From Eledone cirrhosa (lineage: Eukaryota), in assembly GCA_964016885.1 (NCBI GenBank), contig OZ024743.1:286130001-286194000 (forward strand): a stretch of DNA of 64,000 nt, read 5' to 3'. Positions 14,351 to 62,250 of this stretch are shown here, piece by piece. A model generated the notes under the pieces. The model did no database searches and was not told where the DNA came from. It saw only the letters and a program-made list of their open reading frames with translations. Each line of letters opens with the position of its first letter. Within the stretch, counting starts at the first letter, position 1. The translations under genes and the position numbers were made by a program.

Positions 14351-15847
14351 TAATGGGCTCCTATCATTAAAATACTCGATAAACCTCCTATGAGAAGCCA
14401 TTTTGCAAGCAGGAGACCAGCTGAACTTACATAGGTGTGAGCTCTAAAGTTCATTTCTTTTTGACCTGGCGCAAAAAGTAACATCAACACACTGTATTCT
14501 AAATTGAGGACGTATATGGGGCGGAACTTATCAGCTGATTAATTCTCATTCTTAAGTACTTGTAACCACCTTCTAGCACCAACCTCTATCCCATTATCTC
14601 TTAACATATTCACTGCAACAACATTACCAATACATCATTGATTGTCTGGATATTTTTAGATCTTGCATGTTTACAAACTTTTTCTCAATGAGAAAACGAA
14701 AGGCAGATCGAATATCAGGTTGAATTAGCTCATTAGTGATTCGGTGATAGCAGACATTTTTGAAAGGATCCACGGAGAGAAGATTCATTGCATAATTTAC
14801 TTCTTCTTTGAATATGTTCACAGAATCAAATTTGTTAAGTCAATAGCTAGAATATCAGTCTCAAACGGTAAAATAAAGTTTCTAGGTTCAGGAATACCAT
14901 ATGTATTGTCAACGATACACCCACGATGAAAAATATAGTCAGACTATCAGACAACCGCCACGACGACGACGACGACCACCACCACCACCACCACCTCCTC
15001 AAAAAGATTTTTTTTTACAAATGTTCTTTTACCAATCATTCATATTCAACACAAGGAATAATGTTTTATTTCAACTTCTGATTCTAAAATGTTGCTCCTT
15101 GTTTGAGCTTTGAAATGATCGAACCTTATATATGCAGAACAGTTGAGGATAAGGACACCCCCTCCTAAATACTTTGTATCTAATCTGCAATGTGCTGTTA
15201 ACCCATGGACATATATGTGTCGTACGCATACTGAATTATCTGTTTCAATATTTCTCGCCAGTGTTGTTAGCTCACAGTATATCAAACACTTATCGTTAAT
15301 CGTGTTAGTAGACTAAATCGACTTCAAACGATTTGTTAACATATGTTCTTGTTGTTAAGCTGCTCTTAACGACTAGACACAAGCTAGATTGGAACTAATA
15401 TAAAGATTTGACTTATGTTAAAAGCATATAGTTAGGTCACACCACCTACAATAACGTACATATTTAATATACGACAATAATAATACGAAATAAATTTAGG
15501 CGATTTAATTAATATAAAAATCATATTGAAAATTAAGCAGACTAAGATTTATGTTCGAATCATCTTAGTTTTTAGAATTATGCTTACGAAACATGGTCTC
15601 GAGATGAAGTTACAACACTGATTCTTTTAACAATTGTTTCACTATTACCTAACTTATTGAGTTAGGTAATAGTGAAACAATTGATTCACTATTACCTAAC
15701 TTATTGAGTTCACTCTGAGGAGAAATTTTCTTAATTGCTTTATCATTGAATGCTTCGTGACAGTCTTCGAATTTCAATCGGATGTGAATCTGCTACTTCC
15801 AGCTGCAACTTCATTTATACTCATTACTGTTATATATATATATATAT

Positions 15848-16148
15848 AAAAGAAATAAGATTTCGCTTCAAGCATAGCTTTATACAATATGTATAGAAAT
15901 TTCGTATTTCTAAAGAAATACGGTTTTAGGAAGCCGTAGCTATGCAAACACCGGGGCTAACACCCTTTGGTGGTGTCCAGCAGAAGCAAGAGGGAGAACC
16001 GTCTATGAATTTCAGGCTTGACTGGCCTTCGTCAGGACGGTCCCTCCCACCGCTTGCTACTGCTGGACACCACCAAAGGGTGTTAGCCTCGGTGTTTGCA
16101 TAGCTACGGCTTCCTAAAACCGTATTTCTTTAGAAATACGAAATTTCT
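15848..16148 (-). mobile_element. Rod-like fold-back non-coding element with a hammerhead at the apex
   Basis: Near-perfect inverted arms ~15895-15990 and ~16050-16148, flanked by TA/TC microsatellites. Confidence 0.8.
15992..16048 (-). ncRNA. Minimal type I hammerhead ribozyme
   Basis: gggagggaccgtc-CTGACGA-aggc cagtcaa gcct-GAAA-ttca-TA-gacggttctccc: long stem I, intact core, 4-bp stem II, 1-bp stem III. Confidence 0.85.
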
Positions 16149-16175
16149 CTCTCTCTCTCTATATATATATACATA

Positions 16176-16254
16176 CAGGGTGTCACCAAAAATATATACA
16201 CACTTCAACAGAATTCTAATCAAAGTGAGTATACATTTTTGGTGGGAAACCTTG
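16176..16254. mobile_element. Tiny Tc1/mariner-type MITE
   Basis: TA-CAGGGTGTCACCAAAAATATATACACACTT with an inverted partner ending at 16254. Confidence 0.6.
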
Positions 16255-16403
16255 TGTGTGTATATATATATATATATATATGAATATATGTATAGTATAT
16301 TTGGCAATATACTGTATGCTTAATTAAAAACATTTTGAAGACCTTGTGCTATTATTTTAAAGTAGTGACTATGTCACTTCTTTTTTCGACAAACAAAGGG
16401 GGA

Positions 16404-16449
16404 TAAGCTGACAGATCTGTTTCACACTGTTGGTGATCATCAGAGATTA
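16404..16449 (-). ncRNA. Type I hammerhead ribozyme (minus-arm copy)
   Basis: taatct-CTGATGA-tcaccaacagtgt-GAAA-cagatctg-TC-agctta. Confidence 0.8.
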
Positions 16450-16846
16450 ACACTTGCCCATGTTTGTTGAAAATTATAGATGCTGGATTCTTATAGAATT
16501 CCAGTAATAATCAGGAACTGATTATACAGAGCAGTTGCCGGTCCAGCAAACATTGAAAATTAGGATTGGTGCTCTGAAATAGCGATGTATACATGAATAT
16601 ATGTATAGTATATTTGGCAATATATTGTATGCTTAATTAAAAACTATACTATACATATATACTATACAAATATACTCTACAAATATACTATACATATATT
16701 CATGTATACATCACTATTTCAGAGCACCAATCCTAATTTTCAATGTTTGCTGGACCGGCAATCGCTCTGTATAATCAGTTCCTGATTATTACTGGAATTC
16801 TATAAGAATTCAGCATCTATAATTTTCAATAAACATCAGCGAGTGC

Positions 16847-16892
16847 TAAGCTCTGATGATCACCAACAGTGTGAAACAGATCTGTCAGCTTA
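16847..16892 (+). ncRNA. Type I hammerhead ribozyme, GUC site, palindromic stem III
   Basis: taagct-CTGATGA-tcaccaacagtgt-GAAA-cagatctg-TC-agctta; perfect 6-bp stem I; predicted cleavage after C16886. Confidence 0.9.
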
Positions 16893-16994
16893 TCTCCCTT
16901 TGTTTGTTGAAAAAAGAAGTAAGTGACATAGTCACTACTTTAAAATAATAGCGCAAGGTCTTCAACACAATTGGTAGAGTAGCAGGAAGAGGGA

Positions 16995-17028
16995 CTTAAT
17001 GTTTCAGACGCCAATCCTTCATCAGAAG
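16995..17028 (-). ncRNA. Ultra-minimal hammerhead-like motif (decayed)
   Basis: ctt-CTGATGA-a ggat tggc gtct-GAAA-caTT-aag; the usual ACGT stem III appears CpG-decayed. Confidence 0.55.
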
Positions 17029-36049: not shown

Positions 36050-39000
36050 CTTCTCCTCTCTCACCTACAGGCTGATATAGAGAGAAGGCCCATTCACTCG
36101 GGCCATTCTCGCTACTTTCACCCACCTTTCATAAAACTTGCTGGGGTAGAGCACCTCTCTCTCCATTCTGATCCTTCTTCTAAAGTGGTACTTGAAAAAA
36201 AAGACCAGTTGTTGGCCGGAGAGAAAGGTGCGACGGTTTCCTCGTCACGCACGCATCTCGGACAGATCTTCTTCGAGGGGTCCCTACCCGGGCGACCGTG
36301 TCTGTAGAGCTTGTCCCGAACGGGTAGAGCTCCTCGGTAACATTGCCAAGCCAGGGACTTTTGGAAGTTGTCCATCGGTCCCGGGCCAAACGTCCGACCG
36401 AACAGACTGGCCAGCTCATCTTCCTCCATGCCCCAGAGCCTCTCCGAGAGCGTCGTCGCACTTACTGCGCACCAACCCTCTATAGAATGTTGAGGTTGAG
36501 TCTCCACTGATTGCCGGATCCGCTTGCCAGAAGGCCGTGAGCGCCTGAGCACATTCAATGTGCCAGTCGCCCACTTTTCTCGGTCTTTGCTTGACCCAGG
36601 ATTGCAGCTCGGTGAGTGAGACGAGTCTCGGAAAGGCTCGCCTCACAAACAGGGCCCACACCGGCTGACCGGTGAGGAATACCTGGAGGTGCCGTAGCCT
36701 TAATGCGTGTCTACGCATCGTCAGCCACGACATCCCCAGCCCTCCGTTCGAAGGGTGTTGACAGCAGATGGATCTTCTCACCAAAGGAGCCCGCTTCTTC
36801 CAAAGAAATCGGAAGAGCGCGCGCTCCATTTTGGCGAGTGTTTTCTCTGGGCCAGGCACGGCGGTCAAGCGGTAGTAGATGACGGACGCTATATAAGCGT
36901 TCGCCACCTCCGCTCGACCTTTCAGGGATAGTTTGCACTCGGCCCACTTCTGGGCGAGTGCAAAGACCTTGCCCGTTACCTCGTCCCAGTTTTTCTCCAC
37001 CTGGAGGTCCGGTCCGAACCAGAACCCGAGCAGCTTCACCGGTCCCTCCGTCCAGCGTCCGACGATGCCGTCGGAGGGCATCGTTTTTCCCCTCCACGTC
37101 CCGAGTTGTAAACCGACGGACTTGTCCCGGTTCAGCTTGGCTCCTGTGAACCTTTCATATTCCTCCAGTAAGGTGTCGATCTGCCCGATTTCCGAGGCGC
37201 ACGACACCATTACCGTCACGTCATCGGCGTAGGCCGACACCGCTTTCCGCAATCCCGGTTCCAAGAGGATGCCCTGCAACAGCTCCAGCTTCCGCAGTAG
37301 TGGCTCGAGAGCCAGCACATACAGGAGGGAGGAGAGAGGGCATCCCTGTCGAATGGATCGCGTGATTTGAAACGGCTCCGAGAGGTAGCCGTTCACCTTG
37401 ACCCTCGAGCAGGTGTTGCTGCTGTGCATTGCAGCAATCCAGCCCCTGAAAACAGGTCCGAAGCCTGCCGCCGCGAGCACCGCATCCAGGTACCGATGGT
37501 CAACCCTATCGAACGCCTTAGATTGATCCAAGTTGATCAGGGCCCCACCAAAGCCGGGTTCGTTCCCTACCCTCTCTACGATGTATCGCATGAGGTGGAG
37601 GTTGTCGTGTATGGACCTGGACGGGATTGCGCATGTCTGCGCTTCTCCCACCAGGTTCCCGACGACAAGCGCCAACCTCTTCGCTAACACCTTGGCCAAC
37701 ATCTTTAACTCTGTGTTTAGCAGAGTTATGGGCCTGAAGTTATCTATGTCATCCCCCTTGTTCTCGTCCTTCCTCACCAGCGTGATACGCCCTTGCTCAC
37801 AGAACTGGGAATTCTCCCGTTCTGTTGCCAGTTGCAGTAGACCGCCTCGAGGAGACCGGAGAACAAGCCCGGCATCGCTACATAAAGTTCGTATGGTAGA
37901 CCATCGAGACCCGGAGATTTGCGTTTGCCGCATTGGCTCAGAGCTTCCCCTATTTCAGCGGCTGAAATCGGCCTCTCGCAGCACTTCGCCTCCCCGTCCG
38001 AGAGCCGCTCCAGACCGTCGAGGTATGGACCGAAATCCATGGCCCCACCCGGCCCGCCGTCCCTCCCGAACAGTCGTGCAAAGCGCCGTTGAAAGGCCGC
38101 GCTCATCCGCTCAGGTTCAAGGATCACGCGTCCACCCTGGTCCTTCAAAGACCGAATCGTGGACTTGTTTCCACTTTTTGCCTCTGTCACTCGGGCCCAG
38201 CTAACAGCTTTGGCTCCCTCGTTACCCAGAGCACGTATTTTACTCCTGACAACGCAGCCCTCGTGCTTCGCATCAAAGAACTGGTCTAGGGCCGTTCTTG
38301 ACGCCAGCACGCCGGCCACGTTGCCACTCCTAATCGCCTCTTCTACTCTATTTGTTAATTCCCTTTCAGTTCTATTACTATCTGATGCTAATTCCCGACT
38401 AAAACCTATCGATTCTATTCTAATTTCTCTCTTGAGAGAGCCCCACCACCTGTTGTTGACAATTTCCCCCGTCAAACGCTGCTTAACTAGTGTGCTAATC
38501 CGCTTACTGTAAGCTTTGTTTGTCGGTAAAGATAAGTTTAGCTTCCAGTAACCGGGTCCCTGTCTATGAGTTCTATCAAGGTTGACCACTCCGGTCACCA
38601 ACTTGTGATCCGAATAGTCAACCATGAACATTCGTGGACAGCTTAATATGTCCCTATCCTTATTTCTAACTAGGAACCTATCTAGGAACGACCTAGATGT
38701 TTCGCTGCGATTACTCCACGTCCACCGTGGCACAGTCGGAAAATCTAGTCGATATCTATCGGCCAGATCAAATCGGCCGATTAATCGTTTGAGGCTGTTA
38801 CACCCCGCTCTATCGGGACATGCCCCTACATAGTCCCAACGTGCATCCAGGATACCATTCCAGTCCCCCACTAAAAGCAAGGAGCGAGACGTTCCCAGGA
38901 AATTCTCCAGGCGTCGGAAGAAGTCCGGTCGCGGTGTCCCAGTTGGGGCATACGCTGCCACCAGCCTGAAAGCTCCACCTTCACCACTGCCGACGTCTAA

Positions 39001-39285
39001 AACCACCAGTCGACCCTCCGGGTCCAGGTGTACTTTCTGTGTGGCAAGACCCAGGTATTTACGCAGCAGAACGACAACCCCACCCCCACCCCTCGGCTGA
39101 CAGAGAGATGCGTAGATCTCAAAGTCGTCGAAGATGGGGGCCAGTTGGCGCTCGCTGCTGATCCTGGACTCGCAAATAACCATTACATCCACTCTGTGCG
39201 ACCTGAGGTCATTTAAGAGTTTGCCCTGTTTCCAGGACATCCCCAAGCCGCGTGCATTCACACATCCAACTCTTATATTGGCCAT
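36050..39285 (-). pseudogene. LINE ORF2: APE endonuclease + reverse transcriptase + C-terminal CxxC, with frameshifts near 37790 and 36430
   Basis: NARGL, GDWNG, SFLDRF, SDHK, KSPGLDGLP, NFRPITLLN, DQSKAFDRVDH, IRQGCPLS, AYADD, CPRC. Confidence 0.93.
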
Positions 39286-39327
39286 GTTGGTGCTGAAGAG
39301 TTAAAAAGGAAGAGGAAAGGAAATTAC

Positions 39328-41634: not shown

Positions 41635-41683
<49 letters not shown>

Positions 41684-41843
41684 ATACTTTGGAAGGGTCA
41701 TGTTGCCAATAAGAAACACATGCACCAGTTGCTTTCACTTCAATTTATTATATATTTATAAATTTATAAATTTACAAATTTACAAACTTATAAATTTCTG
41801 GTTGGTTGGTTGGTTCCACAACCAGATAGTTGTTTATATATAT

Positions 41844-41888
41844 AGTCATAGTCCTTTCGTCACACACTCTGTGACCTCTTCAGTGACT
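41844..41888 (-). ncRNA. Minimal type I hammerhead (PLE left arm)
   Basis: Reverse complement of the 43174-43218 motif. Confidence 0.82.
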
Positions 41889-43173
41889 GGGGATTCCTTT
41901 CTTTGTTTCTGTGCCTTTCCTTTCTTCTATCCTACGCTATTTTGTTTCTGTGTGTGTGTTGTGTGTTCAGTTTGCGCATGCGCCACATCCGGGTGTCTGT
42001 GTGTGTTTGTGTTCATTTATCTATTTGTTTATTTATTTATTTATTTATTGTTGGTTGGTTGTTTGTTCTATGTGTGTGTGTGTTTTCATTTTGTCCTGTG
42101 TGTGTTTTCATTTTGTCCTTAATTGTAAGTTGTTTGTTCTATGTGTGTGTGTGTTTTCATTTTGTCCTGTGTGTGTTTTCATTTTGTCCTTAATTGTAAG
42201 TTGTGATGTTGCTGTTCCACTCATATTTTCTATTTAATTTTGGTTTTAATTCTTTTATGCTTACTGCCTCTGTAATTTGCCTAAACATTGCGTCTTTTCT
42301 GTGTGTGGATTCTATTTTTATTTCTATGTTCTCTAATCTACCCCTGTGTTCTATCTTAGCATGTTGGTAGAGCACAGATGATTCTTTATTATCTTGGAGG
42401 TCTCGCCAGTGTTCATTTATTCGTTCTCCTATACTACGAGCTGTCTCACCTATGTACACTATATTTTTGTTTCTACATTGTCCTTCAGTACATCTTATGC
42501 TATACACTACATTTCTAGTTTTACAGTTAATATGGGGGCTTATTTTACAGGTTATACATTTCTTATCTATACATGAGGGTCTTTGGAACGGGTATGTCTT
42601 GCTAATAAGTGTTTTTACGGAGGTACGTAGTATAGGAGAACGAATAAATGAACACTGGCGAGACCTCCAAGATAATAAAGAATCATCTGTGCTCTACCAA
42701 CATGCTAAGATAGAACACAGGGGTAGATTAGAGAACATAGAAATAAAAATAGAATCCACACACAGAAAAGACGCAATGTTTAGGCAAATTACAGAGGCAG
42801 TAAGCATAAAAGAATTAAAACCAAAATTAAATAGAAAATATGAGTGGAACAGCAACATCACAACTTACAATTAAGGACAAAATGAAAACACACACAGGAC
42901 AAAATGAAAACACACACACACAGAACAAACAACTTACAATTAAGGACAAAATGAAAACACACACAGGACAAAATGAAAACACACACACACATAGAACAAA
43001 CAACCAACCAACAATAAATAAATAAATAAATAAACAAATAGATAAATGAACACAAACACACACAGACACCCGGATGTGGCGCATGCGCAAACTGAACACA
43101 CAACACACACACAGAAACAAAATGGCGTAGGATAGAAGAAAGGAAAGGCACAGAAACAAAGAAAGGAATCCCC

Positions 43174-43218
43174 AGTCACTGAAGAGGTCACAGAGTGTGT
43201 GACGAAAGGACTATGACT
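43174..43218 (+). ncRNA. Minimal type I hammerhead (PLE right arm)
   Basis: agtca-CTGAAGA-g gtcaca gagtg tgtgac-GAAA-ggac-TA-tgact. Confidence 0.82.
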
Positions 43219-43442
43219 ATATATATAAACAACTATCTGGTTGTGGAACCAACCAACCAACCAACCAGAAATTTATAAGTTTGTAAATTTGTAAATTTAT
43301 AAATTTATAAATATATAATAAATTGAAGTGAAAGCAACTGGTGCGTGTGTTTCTTATTGGCAACATGACCCTCCCAAAGTATAACAATATCGGTTTCAAC
43401 ACACGATTTCAGATAAAAAATCTTGCTAAACAAATTCAGAAA

Positions 43443-44929: not shown

Positions 44930-45878
44930 TCTTTAAGTCGTTTGGAAGCCTCGACAATGCAAATGGGTAAATCTCCGGGTAACAAGGTCCGGTGGTGGAG
45001 AGAGAGATGTAAGTGGGTGTACGTTGAGATGCGTGGTGTGTATAAGATGTGTGAGATGTGTAAAATGAAGGGTATAGTATAAAGGATAAAATAAAAATAA
45101 CAACACAAGAGAGTTAATAGTCCCTATATATTTCGGATTCACATCCATCAACTGGGTTTTTTTTCCGTGGTGGGGGAAAAGGTTGTCTGTCGGACAAGTC
45201 CGGAACGCGTCCTTCGCTGTTTGTTGTTTTGAATATCTGAGGTATTCGGCAGAGCGCGCGTGCGCGTGAAATGGGGTCGGTCGTACAGAGGTCAGCGGCC
45301 GAATGAGGGAGTGGGATGGCGCTAGCTGTCAGTCCATTCTCTGACTGTTTGTTAAATGTTACTGTGTGTGTGTGTGCGTGTGTTGTTGTCTCGCTTGAGT
45401 GTGTGTGTGTGTGTGTGCGTGTGTTGTTGCCTTGTTCCTCTGTATTGGCAGTGTAGTATGTTCGTATGGTGGAATGCTACTGTGTGTGTGTGCGTGTGTG
45501 TGTGTAGTTGTCTCGTTTGCGTGTGTGTGTGTGCGTGTGTTGTGTGTTGTTGCATCGCTTGTTAACTTAAACCAGCCATCTCATTTTGCTTCTCTCTGAT
45601 CGGTTGTTTATTTGCGGTTGCAGTCGTTTGATAAAAAGCGCTTCCTTGATACGTAACGTGCCGACGTTTCTTTCAGTCGCTAGAATTGTGACAATGGGCC
45701 TTACGTCTCTGTTTCCGCATTTGTCTATGTGTTTCCGGAAAGACGAGGCCCTGGTTTTAATGTGTTCCTTGATCCGGATGTGCAAAGGTCGAATTGTGCT
45801 ATCTATGTAGTATTGGTTGCACCTGTCACATTCTATCTTATACACGACGTATGTGCGTAGGCAACAGTTCGCATGGCG
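44930..45878 (-). mobile_element. Penelope-like element 3' fragment (GIY-YIG C-terminus + 3' UTR with decayed HHR at 45121-45156)
   Basis: 45567-45878 encodes [29 protein letters not shown]...[17 protein letters not shown]. Confidence 0.88.
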
Positions 45879-47836: not shown

Positions 47837-50459
47837 ATAAATAATCACAAGTGTTCCTTATATTGCCCGGAAAGAGTTTTTGGGGTTAAATCCACATCAA
47901 GGTTCATTGCTCGCAAAAATATCTTGTTTTGATTTTGCAGCAGGTCAAGGGAGGTAACTCTGGCCGGTGTTAGGGCAGTCTTTCCCGGACAACTTTTTTT
48001 TTTTTTTTTTTTTCCTTGCCGCATCTGTTTATCTGAGGCTGGGGCTGGTACGCAAGGATTGTTTCCTGGGTGTTATTTTGCAGCGCCTGCCCGCCGGGGT
48101 GTTAAGACTTGTTGCAGGGAGATCCGGTGTACGGTTTCACTCCTCATCCTTAACCCATCTGAAGAAGGATATTTTTAAGCGATGTGTAAACTTATCGCTG
48201 TTTCAGCTCTGCTGTTGATGAGCTCGTGGGGTGCAGTTATGATGTGGTAGAGCTCCATGAGGCAAAGATCGCATTTCCTCTTGAAGTTGTACGGTGCAGC
48301 CCTGCCGACAATCTCCCAGTGCGTGGAGAAGCTGATGTTTAAGTCCTTTAGTGATGTGATGTAGTCCGCGAGCGAAGTGGAGGGCCTTAGTTTTCTATTT
48401 GTGACAGAGTGGAGATGTGTTCGAAACCTAATTTTGAACGGGCCGGAGGTAGCCCCTATATAATGTTTAACGCTATTGTGGCTGGTAATAGTGCATCTAT
48501 ATATAACCCTATCAGTCAAGCAGTATCCTCTAAGGTGGCAGCGTCCTCTGTCGCGGCAGTTGCAATTTCTGTCGCGGTTCGTCTATTTCCCACGGTAAGG
48601 CTATCATTGTTGCTGCCTACGTTGTTACCTACGCTACCGCAGCTGTCTTTAGCACCATTACAACCCACAGCATGCGGGGTGGTGTGATTGTTATTCCGCA
48701 CGTCATGTCCTGCATGTTCCCCAGTCATTTCGCGGTTATGCTGGTTGCGTCTGCGGATGCCGTTGCCAACACTATTGGATGCTGCCAAGGAGTTGTTAAG
48801 GCCGATATAGTTATTGTCAGGTGTAGGTGCGTCTGTGTCGAGGTGCTGTGTCTTGGTGATCTTACTGTGGTTCGTTGTTCCTATGATGTCTGCTAGGTTA
48901 GGAGTAGTAGAGAAGGATATTTTTATATTGTTCCTATTAAGAATTTTTCTATACCTATGGTTGGGCGGGAAGTTCTTCTCTAAGGCTTCGAAGAACATCC
49001 GGGGTATGTTGGAGGCCACACTCCGAGAGTAGGGGGGTGGGGTGGGTGGTGGAACCATAGGACGTTACGGTGGCGATTACGTGTCCTTGTACTTTTGCTA
49101 TGGGTGGTTCCATCTAGGTGACCGCTCTTATGTGTGTTAATGCGCAGTCGCCCGTTCGGTGCCCCTTTCACTTTATGCTCGGGTGCACTCTTCCTACCTC
49201 TTCCATGTTTATGTACACGAAGATGTTGGTTGGAAGGCGTTGGTAGTAGGCCGTCGCCTTTGTTGGTTTTGTAATAGGGGAATAGTTCGAGTAATCTACA
49301 GTGTTCACCGTCCCGGGGTCGTGATCTTTGGTGCGGTTATCTATTCTATTATATCCGACTTCAACGAGGTCGCCGCGTGATCGGTTATAGGTATGGCTTA
49401 CTATAACGTTTGTTTTATGAGGAGGGTGGTTTCTAGAGCTAGCGTTAGGGATGTAGGAAATTCTTCGGTTAAAGCCGGCGCTTATCAGGGCCCTATTGTA
49501 GTAATCTGCCGCTTAGTTGAAGATATCCTCATTGGCGGATAGCCTCGAGATTCTATGTGAGATACTATAGACTATCCAGTTCGAAGGCTCCCACTGGACC
49601 AGAACCAACCGTCCTGATAACTTCGATGTCACGATGGGGTCCAGTGACTCAGCGCAAGCAACTGACCTGGTCGGGATATACCTCCTACATAAGCTTAGGG
49701 AAGAGATACCGGCCCTACAAGGAACCATAGCCCCCGATTGATAGAGAACCTTAACAAACATATACACAGGTTCTTCAAGTCATACGGCCTATCCGTAACT
49801 ATGGACCTCAACCACAGGGTTGTCAACTTCCTGGACGTGACCCTGGAGTTGAGTACGGGCTTATACAAGCCATACCATAAGCCTGGAGAGTGCCTCTCTT
49901 ATATTAATTATGCCTCCAACCACCCTAAGCAGACTCTCAACTCCATAGTCTATAGTATCTCACATAGAATCTCGAGGCTATCCGCCAATGAGGATATCTT
50001 CAACCAAGCGGCAGATTACTACAATAGGGCCCTGATAAGCGCCGGCTTTAACCGAGGAATTTCCTACATCCCTAACGCTAGCTCTAGAACCCCCCCCTCA
50101 TAAAACAAATATTATAGTAAGCCATACCTATAACCGATCACGCGGCGACCTCGTTGAAGTCGGATATAATAGAATAGATAACCGCACCAAAGATCACGAC
50201 CCCGGGACGGTGAACACTGTAGATTACTCGAACTATTCCCCTATTACAAAACCAACAAAGGCGACGGCCTACTACCAACGCCTTCCAACCAACATCTTCG
50301 TGTACATAAACATGGAAGAGGTAGGAAGAGTGCACCCGAGCATAAAGTGAAAGGGGCACCGAACGGGCGACTGCGCATTAACACACATAAGAGCGGTCAC
50401 CTAGATGGAACCACCCGTAGCAAAAGTACAAGGACACGTAATCGCCACCGTAACGTCCT

Positions 50460-51344
50460 ATGGTTCCACCACCCACCCCACCCCCCTACTCTCGGAGTGT
50501 GGCCTCCAACATACCCCGGATGTTCTTCGAAGTCTTAGAGAAGAACTTCCCGCCCAACCATAGGTATAGAAAAATTCTTAATAGGAACAATATAAAAATA
50601 TCCTTCTCTACTACTCCTAACCTAGCAGACATCATAGGAACAACGAACCACAGTAAGATCACCAAGACACAGCACCTCGACACAGACGCACCTACACCTG
50701 ACAATAACTATATCGGCCTTAACAACTCCTTGGCAGCATCCAATAGTGTTGGCAACGGCATCCGCAGACGCAACCAGCATAACCGCGAAATGACTGGGGA
50801 ACATGCAGGACATGACGTGCGGAATAACAATCGCACCACCCCGCGTGCTGTGGGTTGTAATGGTGCTAACGACACCTGCGGTAGCGTAGGTAACAACGTA
50901 GGCAGCAACAATGATAGCCTTACCGTGGGAAATAGACGGAACCGCGACAGAAATTGCAACTGCCGTGACAGAGGACTCTGCCCCCTTAGAGGATACTGCT
51001 TGACTGATAGGGTTATATATAGATGCACTATTACCAGCCACAATAGCGTTAAACATTATATAGGGGCTACCTCCGGCCCGTTCAAAATTAGGTTTCGAAC
51101 ACATCTCCACTCTTTCACAAATAGAAAACTAAGGCCCTCCACTTCGCTCGCGGACTACATCACATCACTAAAGGACTTAAACATCAGCTTCTCCACGCAC
51201 TGGGAGATTGTCGGCAGGGCTGCACCGTACAACTTCAAGAGGAAATGCGATCTTTGCCTCATGGAGCTCTACCACATCATAACTGCACCCCACGAGCTCA
51301 TCAACAGCAGAGCTGAAACAGCGATAAGTTTACACATCGCTTAA
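50460..51344 (+). pseudogene. PLE linker + GIY-YIG endonuclease domain
   Basis: ORF track 50460-51344; joined by frameshifts to the RT fragment at 49575-50103. Confidence 0.85.
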
Positions 51345-51679
51345 AAATATCCTTCTTCAGATGGGTTAAGGATGAGGAGTGAAACCGTACACCGGATCTC
51401 CCTGCAACCAGTCTTAATACCCCGGCGGGCAGGCGCTGCAAAATAACACCCAGGAAACAATCCTTGCGTACCAGACCCAGCCTCAGACAAACAGATGCGG
51501 CAAGGAAAAAAAAAAAAAAAAAGTTGTCCGGGAAAGACTGCCCTAACACCGGCCAGAGTTACCTCCCTTGACCTGCTGCAAAATCAAAACAAGATATTTT
51601 TGCGAGCAATGAACCTTGATGTGGATTTAACCCCAAAAACTCTTTCCGAGCAATATAAGGAACACTTGTGATTATTTAT

Positions 51680-61401: not shown

Positions 61402-61785
61402 TATATATATATATATATATTGGTAAACGGAATAGAAAATGCTGACAAATTGTTCACAGTGAAAAATAGTTTAATTAGGAATAAGTGAGAATTAGTAATA
61501 GTATTGGTTAGTATTGAGTTTTGGTTTTTACCGGTTGCGCATTTCTAATGCTTTTCAAAAATAATTTTGAGATAGAGCGTCCGTGATGTTTGCTCTGATC
61601 TGATTAGTTTTGGGAATTCTACCTGTTTTTATGTTAAAAAAGTGGCTCCAGCGGTATTAAAATAAGTTTTGCGCCAATTCGTGTTGCAAAAATTCTTGTG
61701 GTCAAAACAATTTTGATTGGTCGGTAGAGATCATGTGAATGTAAAAAATTGATTTTGCATAAAGAGCAAAAGACAATCTAAGTCA

Positions 61786-62250
61786 ATGAAAAACATCCTA
61801 ACACATGCCAAAGTACTGCCAACCACAACAACGAAACCCACAGTAAAAAAATGCGATAGACCCAACTGTGGCATTTGCATCAACCTAATAGAGGGTTCGG
61901 AATTCTATTTCAAAGAAGGACAACGTTTTATAGTAAAACACAATTTCACATGCGCATCAAAAAATCTAATATATGTATTAACTTGCTCAGGTTGTCGAGA
62001 ACAATACATAGGCCAGACCAAAAACAGCATCCGCCAACGCATGACTGTCCATAGATCCCAAATTAAAATACGGGAATACAGGAAAATACCACTGAGTGAA
62101 CACATTGATACCTGTGCCGCCCAAAATCATCCCAACTTCAGAATATTTCCCCTCTACAAATTTAAAGATAATGCCACCCACACCGAGCGCATCAGCAAGG
62201 AATCTTACTTTATTAACAAATACGGACCCCGTCTAAACACTTCTCCCTAA
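61786..62250 (+). CDS. PLE GIY-YIG endonuclease domain (5'-truncated ORF)
   Basis: CDRPNCGIC..FTCASKNLIYVLTCSGCREQYIGQT..RQRMTVH..RISKESYFI..LN. Confidence 0.85.
   Translation: MKNILTHAKVLPTTTTKPTVKKCDRPNCGICINLIEGSEFYFKEGQRFIVKHNFTCASKNLIYVLTCSGCREQYIGQTKNSIRQRMTVHRSQIKIREYRKIPLSEHIDTCAAQNHPNFRIFPLYKFKDNATHTERISKESYFINKYGPRLNTSP

What the first reader, a model, noticed from the sequence alone, without database searches (positions are those of the whole stretch)
15848..16148. Rod-like element whose apex is exactly a hammerhead: ribozyme stem I runs into a ~95-bp duplex
Seen: on the minus strand an intact CUGACGA/GAAA core sits in the loop, and its stem I (gggagggaccgtc/gacggttctccc) continues into near-perfect inverted arms. 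Inference: either a viroid-like rod RNA, or a snapshot of cDNA snapping back through stem I complementarity and self-priming the inverted arm.
Basis: partly seen in the sequence, partly recalled or inferred. Interest (0 to 1): 0.75.

Follow-up and report, generated by a model that had tools for sequence, protein, structure and literature searches.

The report
Retrozyme insertion joined at ribozyme stem
This hairpin is one of thousands of copies of a 320-base jumping repeat that carries a predicted self-cutting RNA motif, and its mirror-image arms likely arose when two separate DNA copies were joined on landing, here at the ribozyme's own stem, which is a rare joining site rather than the design of a viroid-like rod RNA.

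Summary
The hairpin is real: 99-nt arms, 97% complementary, a hammerhead core in the loop. It is not a rod element. It is one insertion of a 320-bp non-coding tandem repeat with a type I hammerhead motif (non-LTR retrozyme; roughly 3,400 loci estimated), sitting in (TA)n. Of 145 loci sampled by short exact motifs, 79 are head-to-head inversions. Their junctions are spread evenly over the monomer, and 0 of 79 lie in the stem I register. Outer ends fall at two fixed sites about 40 nt apart, one per arm in 37 of 41 pairs, the Penelope 'tail' signature. In 23 of 37 pairs neither arm contains the other, which snap-back cannot make. Two cDNAs primed from both target strands and joined at microhomology fit best. 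Stem I offers one of the monomer's two longest microhomologies (9 nt) and is a weak hotspot: 7 clear genome-wide cases against about 0.6 expected, roughly 0.5% of inversions. This copy has lost the loop III palindrome and is probably inactive. No autonomous partner or RNA data were found. The scan already reached the two-ended-priming reading for other families in this and other genomes.

The parts
15848..16068 (-). Hammerhead-bearing arm: monomer positions 32-251 of the 320-bp family, 5'-truncated, ending at outer site E2
   Evidence: 95.7% to the family majority sequence; architecture
16004..16035 (-). Predicted type I hammerhead: CUGACGA, 4-bp stem II, GAAA, minimal stem III, UA; predicted cut between 16004 and 16003; loop III palindrome broken by one change at 16008
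   Evidence: self-duplex of the stem III 9-mer -6.7 (family) vs +2.0 kcal/mol (this copy)
16036..16068 (-). 5' arm of the family's natural, extended stem I (monomer 32-64)
   Evidence: present in ordinary tandem monomers; fold of the majority sequence
15975..16003 (-). 3' arm of the natural extended stem I (monomer 97-125)
16060..16068 (.). Inversion junction: 9-nt microhomology, monomer 32-40 equals the reverse complement of 117-125
   Evidence: read from the sequence; one search gives 16 nt if one mismatch is allowed; joint-longest perfect match in the monomer
16069..16148 (+). Inverted, 5'-truncated second arm (monomer 126-204), ending at about outer site E1
15848..15886 (-). One-sided tail of about 39 nt (monomer 213-251), on this arm only
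   Evidence: matches the PLE tail described in PMC8557442 and PMC11167929
15831..15847 (.). (TA)n target microsatellite, left flank
   Evidence: family flanks
16149..16177 (.). (CT)n(TA)n right flank; blurs the E1 end; no target-site duplication can be read

Best explanation
This is one 5'-truncated, head-to-head insertion of a 320-bp non-coding repeat with a predicted type I hammerhead, likely written into a (TA)n tract by a Penelope-like RT/GIY-YIG enzyme acting in trans, which likely primed one cDNA from each cut DNA strand, and the two cDNAs were likely joined at a 9-nt match supplied by the ribozyme's stem I. Shown: family, monomer, tandem and inverted layouts, two fixed outer ends, uniform junctions, short microhomologies. 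Inferred: (1) monomer RNA, multimeric or circular, is bound by a PLE protein; (2) both target strands are nicked; (3) RT starts at monomer position ~212 on one strand and ~250-259 on the other; (4) each cDNA stops at a random point, usually past the ribozyme cut site; (5) the two antisense cDNAs anneal at any short inverted match and are filled in. Here the E2 cDNA ended at position 32-40 and paired with 117-125 of the E1 cDNA, leaving one hammerhead in the loop. The copy has since decayed.
For: 386 exact core 22-mers, 1,390 exact arm 22-mers, 828 core-pattern matches, reversed controls 0. 320-bp monomer. 79 of 145 motif-sampled loci inverted. 115 of 158 outer ends at E1 or E2, windows that cover 16% of the monomer; one of each in 37 of 41 pairs, p=4e-8. 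23 of 37 E1/E2 pairs non-nested. Breakpoints uniform: 17 of 158 in the stem I 5' arm vs 16.3 expected. Microhomology >=4 nt in 12 of 60 insertion-free junctions vs 2% null, p=2e-9. A GIY-YIG-coding PLE in this window has the same head-to-head layout, with hammerhead motifs near its outer ends. In vitro a Poseidon PLE cleaves and extends both strands and starts RT at two sites bounding the tail (PMC11167929).
Against: No autonomous partner: three PLE-like endonuclease families (70 loci) share no significant sequence with the monomer. The window copy itself is nested, so fold-back is not excluded for it. Target-site duplications are weak: 4 of 56 at >=10 nt vs null mean 0.8, maximum 3, none here. 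38 of 79 inversions have at least one end outside E1/E2, which I did not resolve (decay or deletion is possible). Arms of one locus are slightly more alike than arms of different loci (0.923 vs 0.906), which one template, later conversion or copying of one arm by the other would all give. Automated breakpoints can be off by a few bases. No cleavage or RNA data.
Confidence: 0.75

Rival explanations
1. Same family and enzyme, but this copy arose by cis snap-back: one cDNA primed at E2 crossed the hammerhead, folded through stem I and copied itself.
For: The inverted arm (117-204) lies inside the other arm (32-251). The junction is at the outer end of stem I. Arms are 97% complementary and share two departures from the majority sequence. 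In-register stem I junctions are enriched: 5 true hits by pattern vs about 0.3 expected at that recall, p=1.5e-5.
Against: A fold-back should run on to E2; this arm stops near E1, the family's independent end. Stem I cases L020 and probably L005 are non-nested; in L009 and L012 the short arm ends at E2 inside a longer array. The shared variants are not private: another locus has an identical arm over positions 130-200. Nested pairs are not more self-similar than background (0.903 vs 0.897, p=0.21, n=19).
Confidence: 0.17
2. A rod-shaped, viroid-like RNA replicon or a rod element that transposes as a unit.
For: Very stable hairpin; a few other loci have the same apex.
Against: Apex not conserved: 0 of 79. 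Same-apex loci differ in arm length, arm order and subfamily. One hammerhead only, on one strand, so no unit-length release; loop III palindrome broken. The repeating unit is the 320-bp monomer, whose circular fold is branched.
Confidence: 0.02
3. The palindrome formed after insertion (DNA repair or replication template switch at stem I), or is an assembly error.
For: L193 shows a local swap that perfects stem I inside a sense copy, so DNA-level switches occur. No listed read or contig bridges the junction.
Against: The inverted arm ends near the family's fixed E1 site and carries no flanking DNA; the arms differ at 3 of 99 positions; over half of all sampled loci are inverted.
Confidence: 0.06

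Closest known systems
Metazoan non-LTR retrozymes (PMC7229834, passages read; bioRxiv 10.64898/2026.07.22.740005, part 1 of 5 and passages)
   Same: Non-coding tandem monomer of about 300 bp, one type I hammerhead per unit, weak stem III with a palindromic loop that needs a dimer, dispersed in thousands of copies, linked to PLEs.
   Different: Here most loci are truncated head-to-head pairs with two fixed outer ends. The word 'inverted' has 0 hits in PMC7229834 and 1 (a reference title) in the preprint. Expression, cleavage and circles were not tested here.
EN+ Penelope-like element insertions (PMC8557442 passages; PMC3846280 passages; PMC4209133 part 1 of 4)
   Same: Partial tandems, an adjacent inverted 5'-truncated copy, a 30-40-bp tail on one end, (TA)n targets, hammerhead in the repeat.
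   Different: No ORF and no identified parent. PMC3846280 explains head-to-head junctions by self-priming at palindromes; in this family most junctions have 0-4 nt of microhomology and most two-ended pairs are non-nested.
Poseidon PAc in vitro system (PMC11167929; passages and second half of main text)
   Same: Both strands cleaved and extended; two internal RT start sites downstream of the hammerhead that bound the tail; uncleaved RNA is the main template; AT-rich targets.
   Different: PAc is autonomous with an ORF starting in stem II; the parts read do not address inverted junctions.
Hammerhead viroids and viroid-like rod RNAs (recalled, not read)
   Same: Hairpin-rich RNA with a hammerhead core.
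   Different: Genomic DNA repeat; single ribozyme on one polarity in this copy; the rod is particular to this locus.

Membership tests
Non-LTR retrozyme | Tandem non-coding monomer of about 170-400 nt | tested here: met
   320-bp monomer, head-to-tail units, arms up to 737 nt; the window copy itself is less than one monomer
Non-LTR retrozyme | Type I hammerhead motif in each unit | tested here: met
   Motif in the majority sequence; 828 pattern matches, control 0; 66 of 100 arm-selected segments keep the exact GAAA-to-cut-site 11-mer. By motif only: Rfam gave no hammerhead hit and covariation was not tested
Non-LTR retrozyme | Dispersed high copy number | tested here: met
   about 3,400 loci estimated
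Non-LTR retrozyme | Self-cleavage and circular RNA expression | not testable with these tools
   Needs an assay or RNA reads; the run list held no run on record as RNA
EN+ PLE-type insertion | Inverted 5'-truncated copy adjacent at the 5' end | tested here: met
   79 of 145 loci; this locus
EN+ PLE-type insertion | 30-40-bp tail on one end only | tested here: met
   Ends at ~212 and ~250-259, one each in 37 of 41
EN+ PLE-type insertion | AT-rich or (TA)n target; target-site duplication | tested here: inconclusive
   (TA)n flanks clear; duplication 4 of 56 vs null mean 0.8
Autonomous PLE | RT plus GIY-YIG ORF | tested here: not met
   No ORF of 150 aa here; 5' flanks of non-inverted loci show no shared upstream extension adjoining the element; no similarity to three PLE families
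Viroid-like rod RNA | Conserved unit-length rod with invariant apex | tested here: not met
   0 of 79 share the apex; same-apex loci differ in arms
Viroid-like rod RNA | Ribozymes able to release unit-length RNA | tested here: not met
   One core, minus strand only, loop III palindrome broken

The most novel reading that the evidence does not exclude
The family is a fossil record of a Penelope enzyme copying a small hammerhead RNA circle from both ends of a DNA break: two fixed starts, read-through of the ribozyme cut site (94 of 115 arms cross it, 43 exceed one monomer), no fixed 5' stop, and joining by microhomology in which the ribozyme's stem I is a 10-15-fold hotspot. That would replace self-priming as the source of head-to-head PLE inversions and place retrozyme circles directly in the PLE cycle.
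Probability: 0.45. Interest if true: 0.55.

Novelty: new member of a known kind. Interest (0 to 1): 0.3.

Why it matters
How PLEs make their inverted copies is described as undefined (PMC8557442), and self-priming at palindromes has been proposed (PMC3846280). This locus looks like the ideal snap-back case, yet the family shows it is a roughly 0.5% by-product and that most inversions need two cDNAs. It warns against reading rod RNAs from single hairpins in PLE-rich genomes and offers a 320-nt substrate for an in vitro test. The element class is known, and the scan has noted the two-ended pattern many times.

Tried and rejected
Rfam at gathering and at E<=10: no hammerhead family. Autonomous partner: 5' flanks of non-inverted loci and 70 loci of three GIY-YIG-type families (best E 0.18, no hit to those loci): none found; other PLE families were not screened. 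Pile-up of 5' ends at the cut site: 2 of 158 vs 3.5 expected; densest 10-nt window p=0.43. Tandem units of one arm are only marginally more alike than background (0.912 vs 0.904, 32 of 57, p=0.025), so a single circular template is not shown. Target-site duplication: weak. Sequencing runs: no RNA holder listed; DNA contigs and RAD reads confirm high copy number and continuation of other copies into the normal upstream monomer at 16068, but no listed piece bridges this junction. The junction pattern had its degenerate base one place off, which costs one subfamily a mismatch; recall with the pattern as used was estimated at 0.48. One of its 6 hits (L193) is an internal swap, not an inversion. 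My hand-drawn hammerhead energies are rough and not used. Literature: 'retrozyme inverted head-to-head hammerhead' 0 papers; 'Penelope twin priming' 3 papers, none on PLE mechanism by listing; two searches gave no paper on this either beyond PMC11167929. PMC522041 and PMC5850863 were not held; subscription papers and all supplements were unseen and may describe this.

Full report
Observation. The hairpin is there: arms 15895-15993 and 16050-16148, 99 nt, 97% complementary, fold z -27.9. The minus strand of the loop holds a type I hammerhead motif: CTGACGA, a 4-bp stem II, GAAA, a minimal stem III and TA before the predicted cut at 16004/16003. Rfam gave no hammerhead match, so the call rests on the motif.

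What it belongs to. A DNA search of the own genome (3.0 Gb) gave 2,407 candidates, 40 scored. Exact 22-mers of the core and of the arm occur 386 and 1,390 times, and a core pattern 828 times, with 0 in reversed controls. Fetched loci define a 320-bp non-coding monomer in head-to-tail units, with at least two subfamilies. A rough estimate is 3,400 loci, about 1,860 inverted. In the ordinary monomer stem I is already extended from position 32 to 125, and loop III is the palindrome ATGCAT, as in dimer-dependent animal hammerheads (PMC4209133; PMC7229834). The window copy is 95.7% identical to the majority sequence, positions 32-251 on the minus strand plus 126-204 on the plus strand. Its loop III reads ATTCAT; the stem III self-duplex goes from -6.7 to +2.0 kcal/mol, so it is probably inactive.

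Samples. Set A is the 29 best hits to the hairpin and is biased towards its shape. Set B comes from the first 100 listed of 386 core matches (79 loci fetched) and set C from the first 100 listed of 1,390 arm matches (81 fetched; about five listed loci already in B were not fetched again, and the last listed core matches on C2 were not fetched). I dropped 15 overlapping or segmentally duplicated loci, leaving 70 and 75. These come from contigs C1 and C2 only.

79 of 145 B and C loci are head-to-head inversions. Their 158 inner breakpoints are uniform over the monomer (KS p=0.71); 17 fall in the stem I 5' arm against 16.3 expected; 1 locus has both breakpoints in the stem I arms against 1.9 expected; 0 are in register. 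So there is neither an invariant apex nor a fixed junction. Junctions do favour microhomology: 12 of 60 insertion-free junctions have 4 nt or more against a 2% null; 19 of 79 carry inserted bases.

Stem I as a minor hotspot. Stem I gives one of the two 9-nt perfect inverted matches in the monomer. A genome-wide pattern for the in-register join found 6 places, 5 true inversions including this one. L009 and L012 add two clear cases, L005 and L015 two probable ones. Uniform joining predicts about 0.6 in all. With recall near 0.5 that is about 10 cases, a 10-15-fold excess and about 0.5% of inversions. The excess depends on my estimate of locus number. These loci differ in arm length, arm order and subfamily, so they formed independently.

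Mechanism. Outer ends cluster at about 212 (E1) and 250-259 (E2): 115 of 158. Where both ends are at these sites, 37 of 41 pairs have one of each (p=4e-8). This is the one-sided PLE tail (PMC8557442), shown in vitro to lie between two RT start sites, with both target strands cleaved and extended (PMC11167929). A fold-back can only copy what the first cDNA already holds, so arms must be nested. 23 of 37 E1/E2 pairs in B and C are not, nor are 11 of 19 in A, including stem I case L020. I infer two cDNAs, one per target strand, joined at short inverted matches. The window copy has E2 at 15848 and about E1 at 16148. It is nested, so snap-back is not excluded for it, but a fold-back has no reason to stop at E1. 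94 of 115 arms with fixed ends cross the predicted cut site, 9 of them twice, and 43 exceed one monomer (53 of 69 cross it in set C, which was not chosen for the core). Templates were therefore uncut multimers or circles; I could not tell which.

Against and open. No autonomous partner among three endonuclease families. Target duplications are weak. 38 of 79 inversions have an end outside E1/E2. Paired arms are slightly more alike than background. No read evidence bridges the junction. Cleavage and expression are untested.

In-window control. A GIY-YIG-coding PLE at about 41676-43390 (Pfam E 4e-5) has the same head-to-head layout with hammerhead motifs near both outer ends and coding sequence at the apex. 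The apex holds whatever the truncation left.

Comparison and novelty. It fits non-LTR retrozymes on the three sequence features tested, and PLE-type insertion on layout and tail. It fails the tests for an autonomous PLE and for a viroid-like rod. Self-priming at palindromes was already proposed for PLE inversions (PMC3846280). My searches found no paper in the held library on two-ended priming for PLEs or retrozymes, but subscription papers and supplements were unseen. Earlier scan notes reached the same reading for other families here and elsewhere; none matched this sequence. I had the two-end, nestedness and junction results before reading them; they prompted the duplication test, the reading of PMC3846280 and the read-through test.

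Verdict. New member of a known kind. The striking apex is a rare joining event. Interest 0.3.

Noticed in passing
window 16376-16920 and 16993-17025: A second head-to-head pair (241-nt arms, 95%) of an unrelated repeat with hammerhead-like motifs at 16410-16443 (-) and 16853-16886 (+), and a third motif at 16993-17025 (-); very high summed depth in DNA contigs.
   Followed up: no
window 41676-43390: Young GIY-YIG-coding PLE, head-to-head, hammerhead motif near each outer end, tail on the right end; 35,913 candidates in the genome, many 99-100% identical.
   Followed up: partly
window 48000-51519: Long inverted pair (99%) with an endonuclease-like C-terminal frame at 50454-51344; no Pfam hit.
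   Followed up: no
window 45570-45848 (-) and 61753-62250 (+): Two more PLE-like endonuclease families (8,903 and 20,867 candidates; the second matches GIY-YIG, many 784-aa open frames); no shared canonical CUGANGA motif downstream in the 25 and 20 loci scanned.
   Followed up: partly
window 36416-39300 (-): Non-LTR retrotransposon with endonuclease/exonuclease/phosphatase and RVT_1 domains in two frames.
   Followed up: no
L193 (G000:C1, about 29419700): Inside a sense copy, part of the stem I 3' arm is replaced by the reverse complement of the 5' arm: a local template switch that perfects the hairpin.
   Followed up: partly
L045-L051 (G000:C1 143.35-143.80 Mb): Seven copies with the same layout about 60-100 kb apart: likely a large segmental tandem duplication.
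   Followed up: no
L090, L106, L118, L156: Junctions at or near other natural hairpins of the monomer (positions 177-196 and 257-275), so hairpin-guided joining is not special to the ribozyme.
   Followed up: partly
window 15629-15710 and 16160-16270: A small inverted triplication (35-nt unit) and a 42-bp imperfect hairpin flank the element.
   Followed up: no
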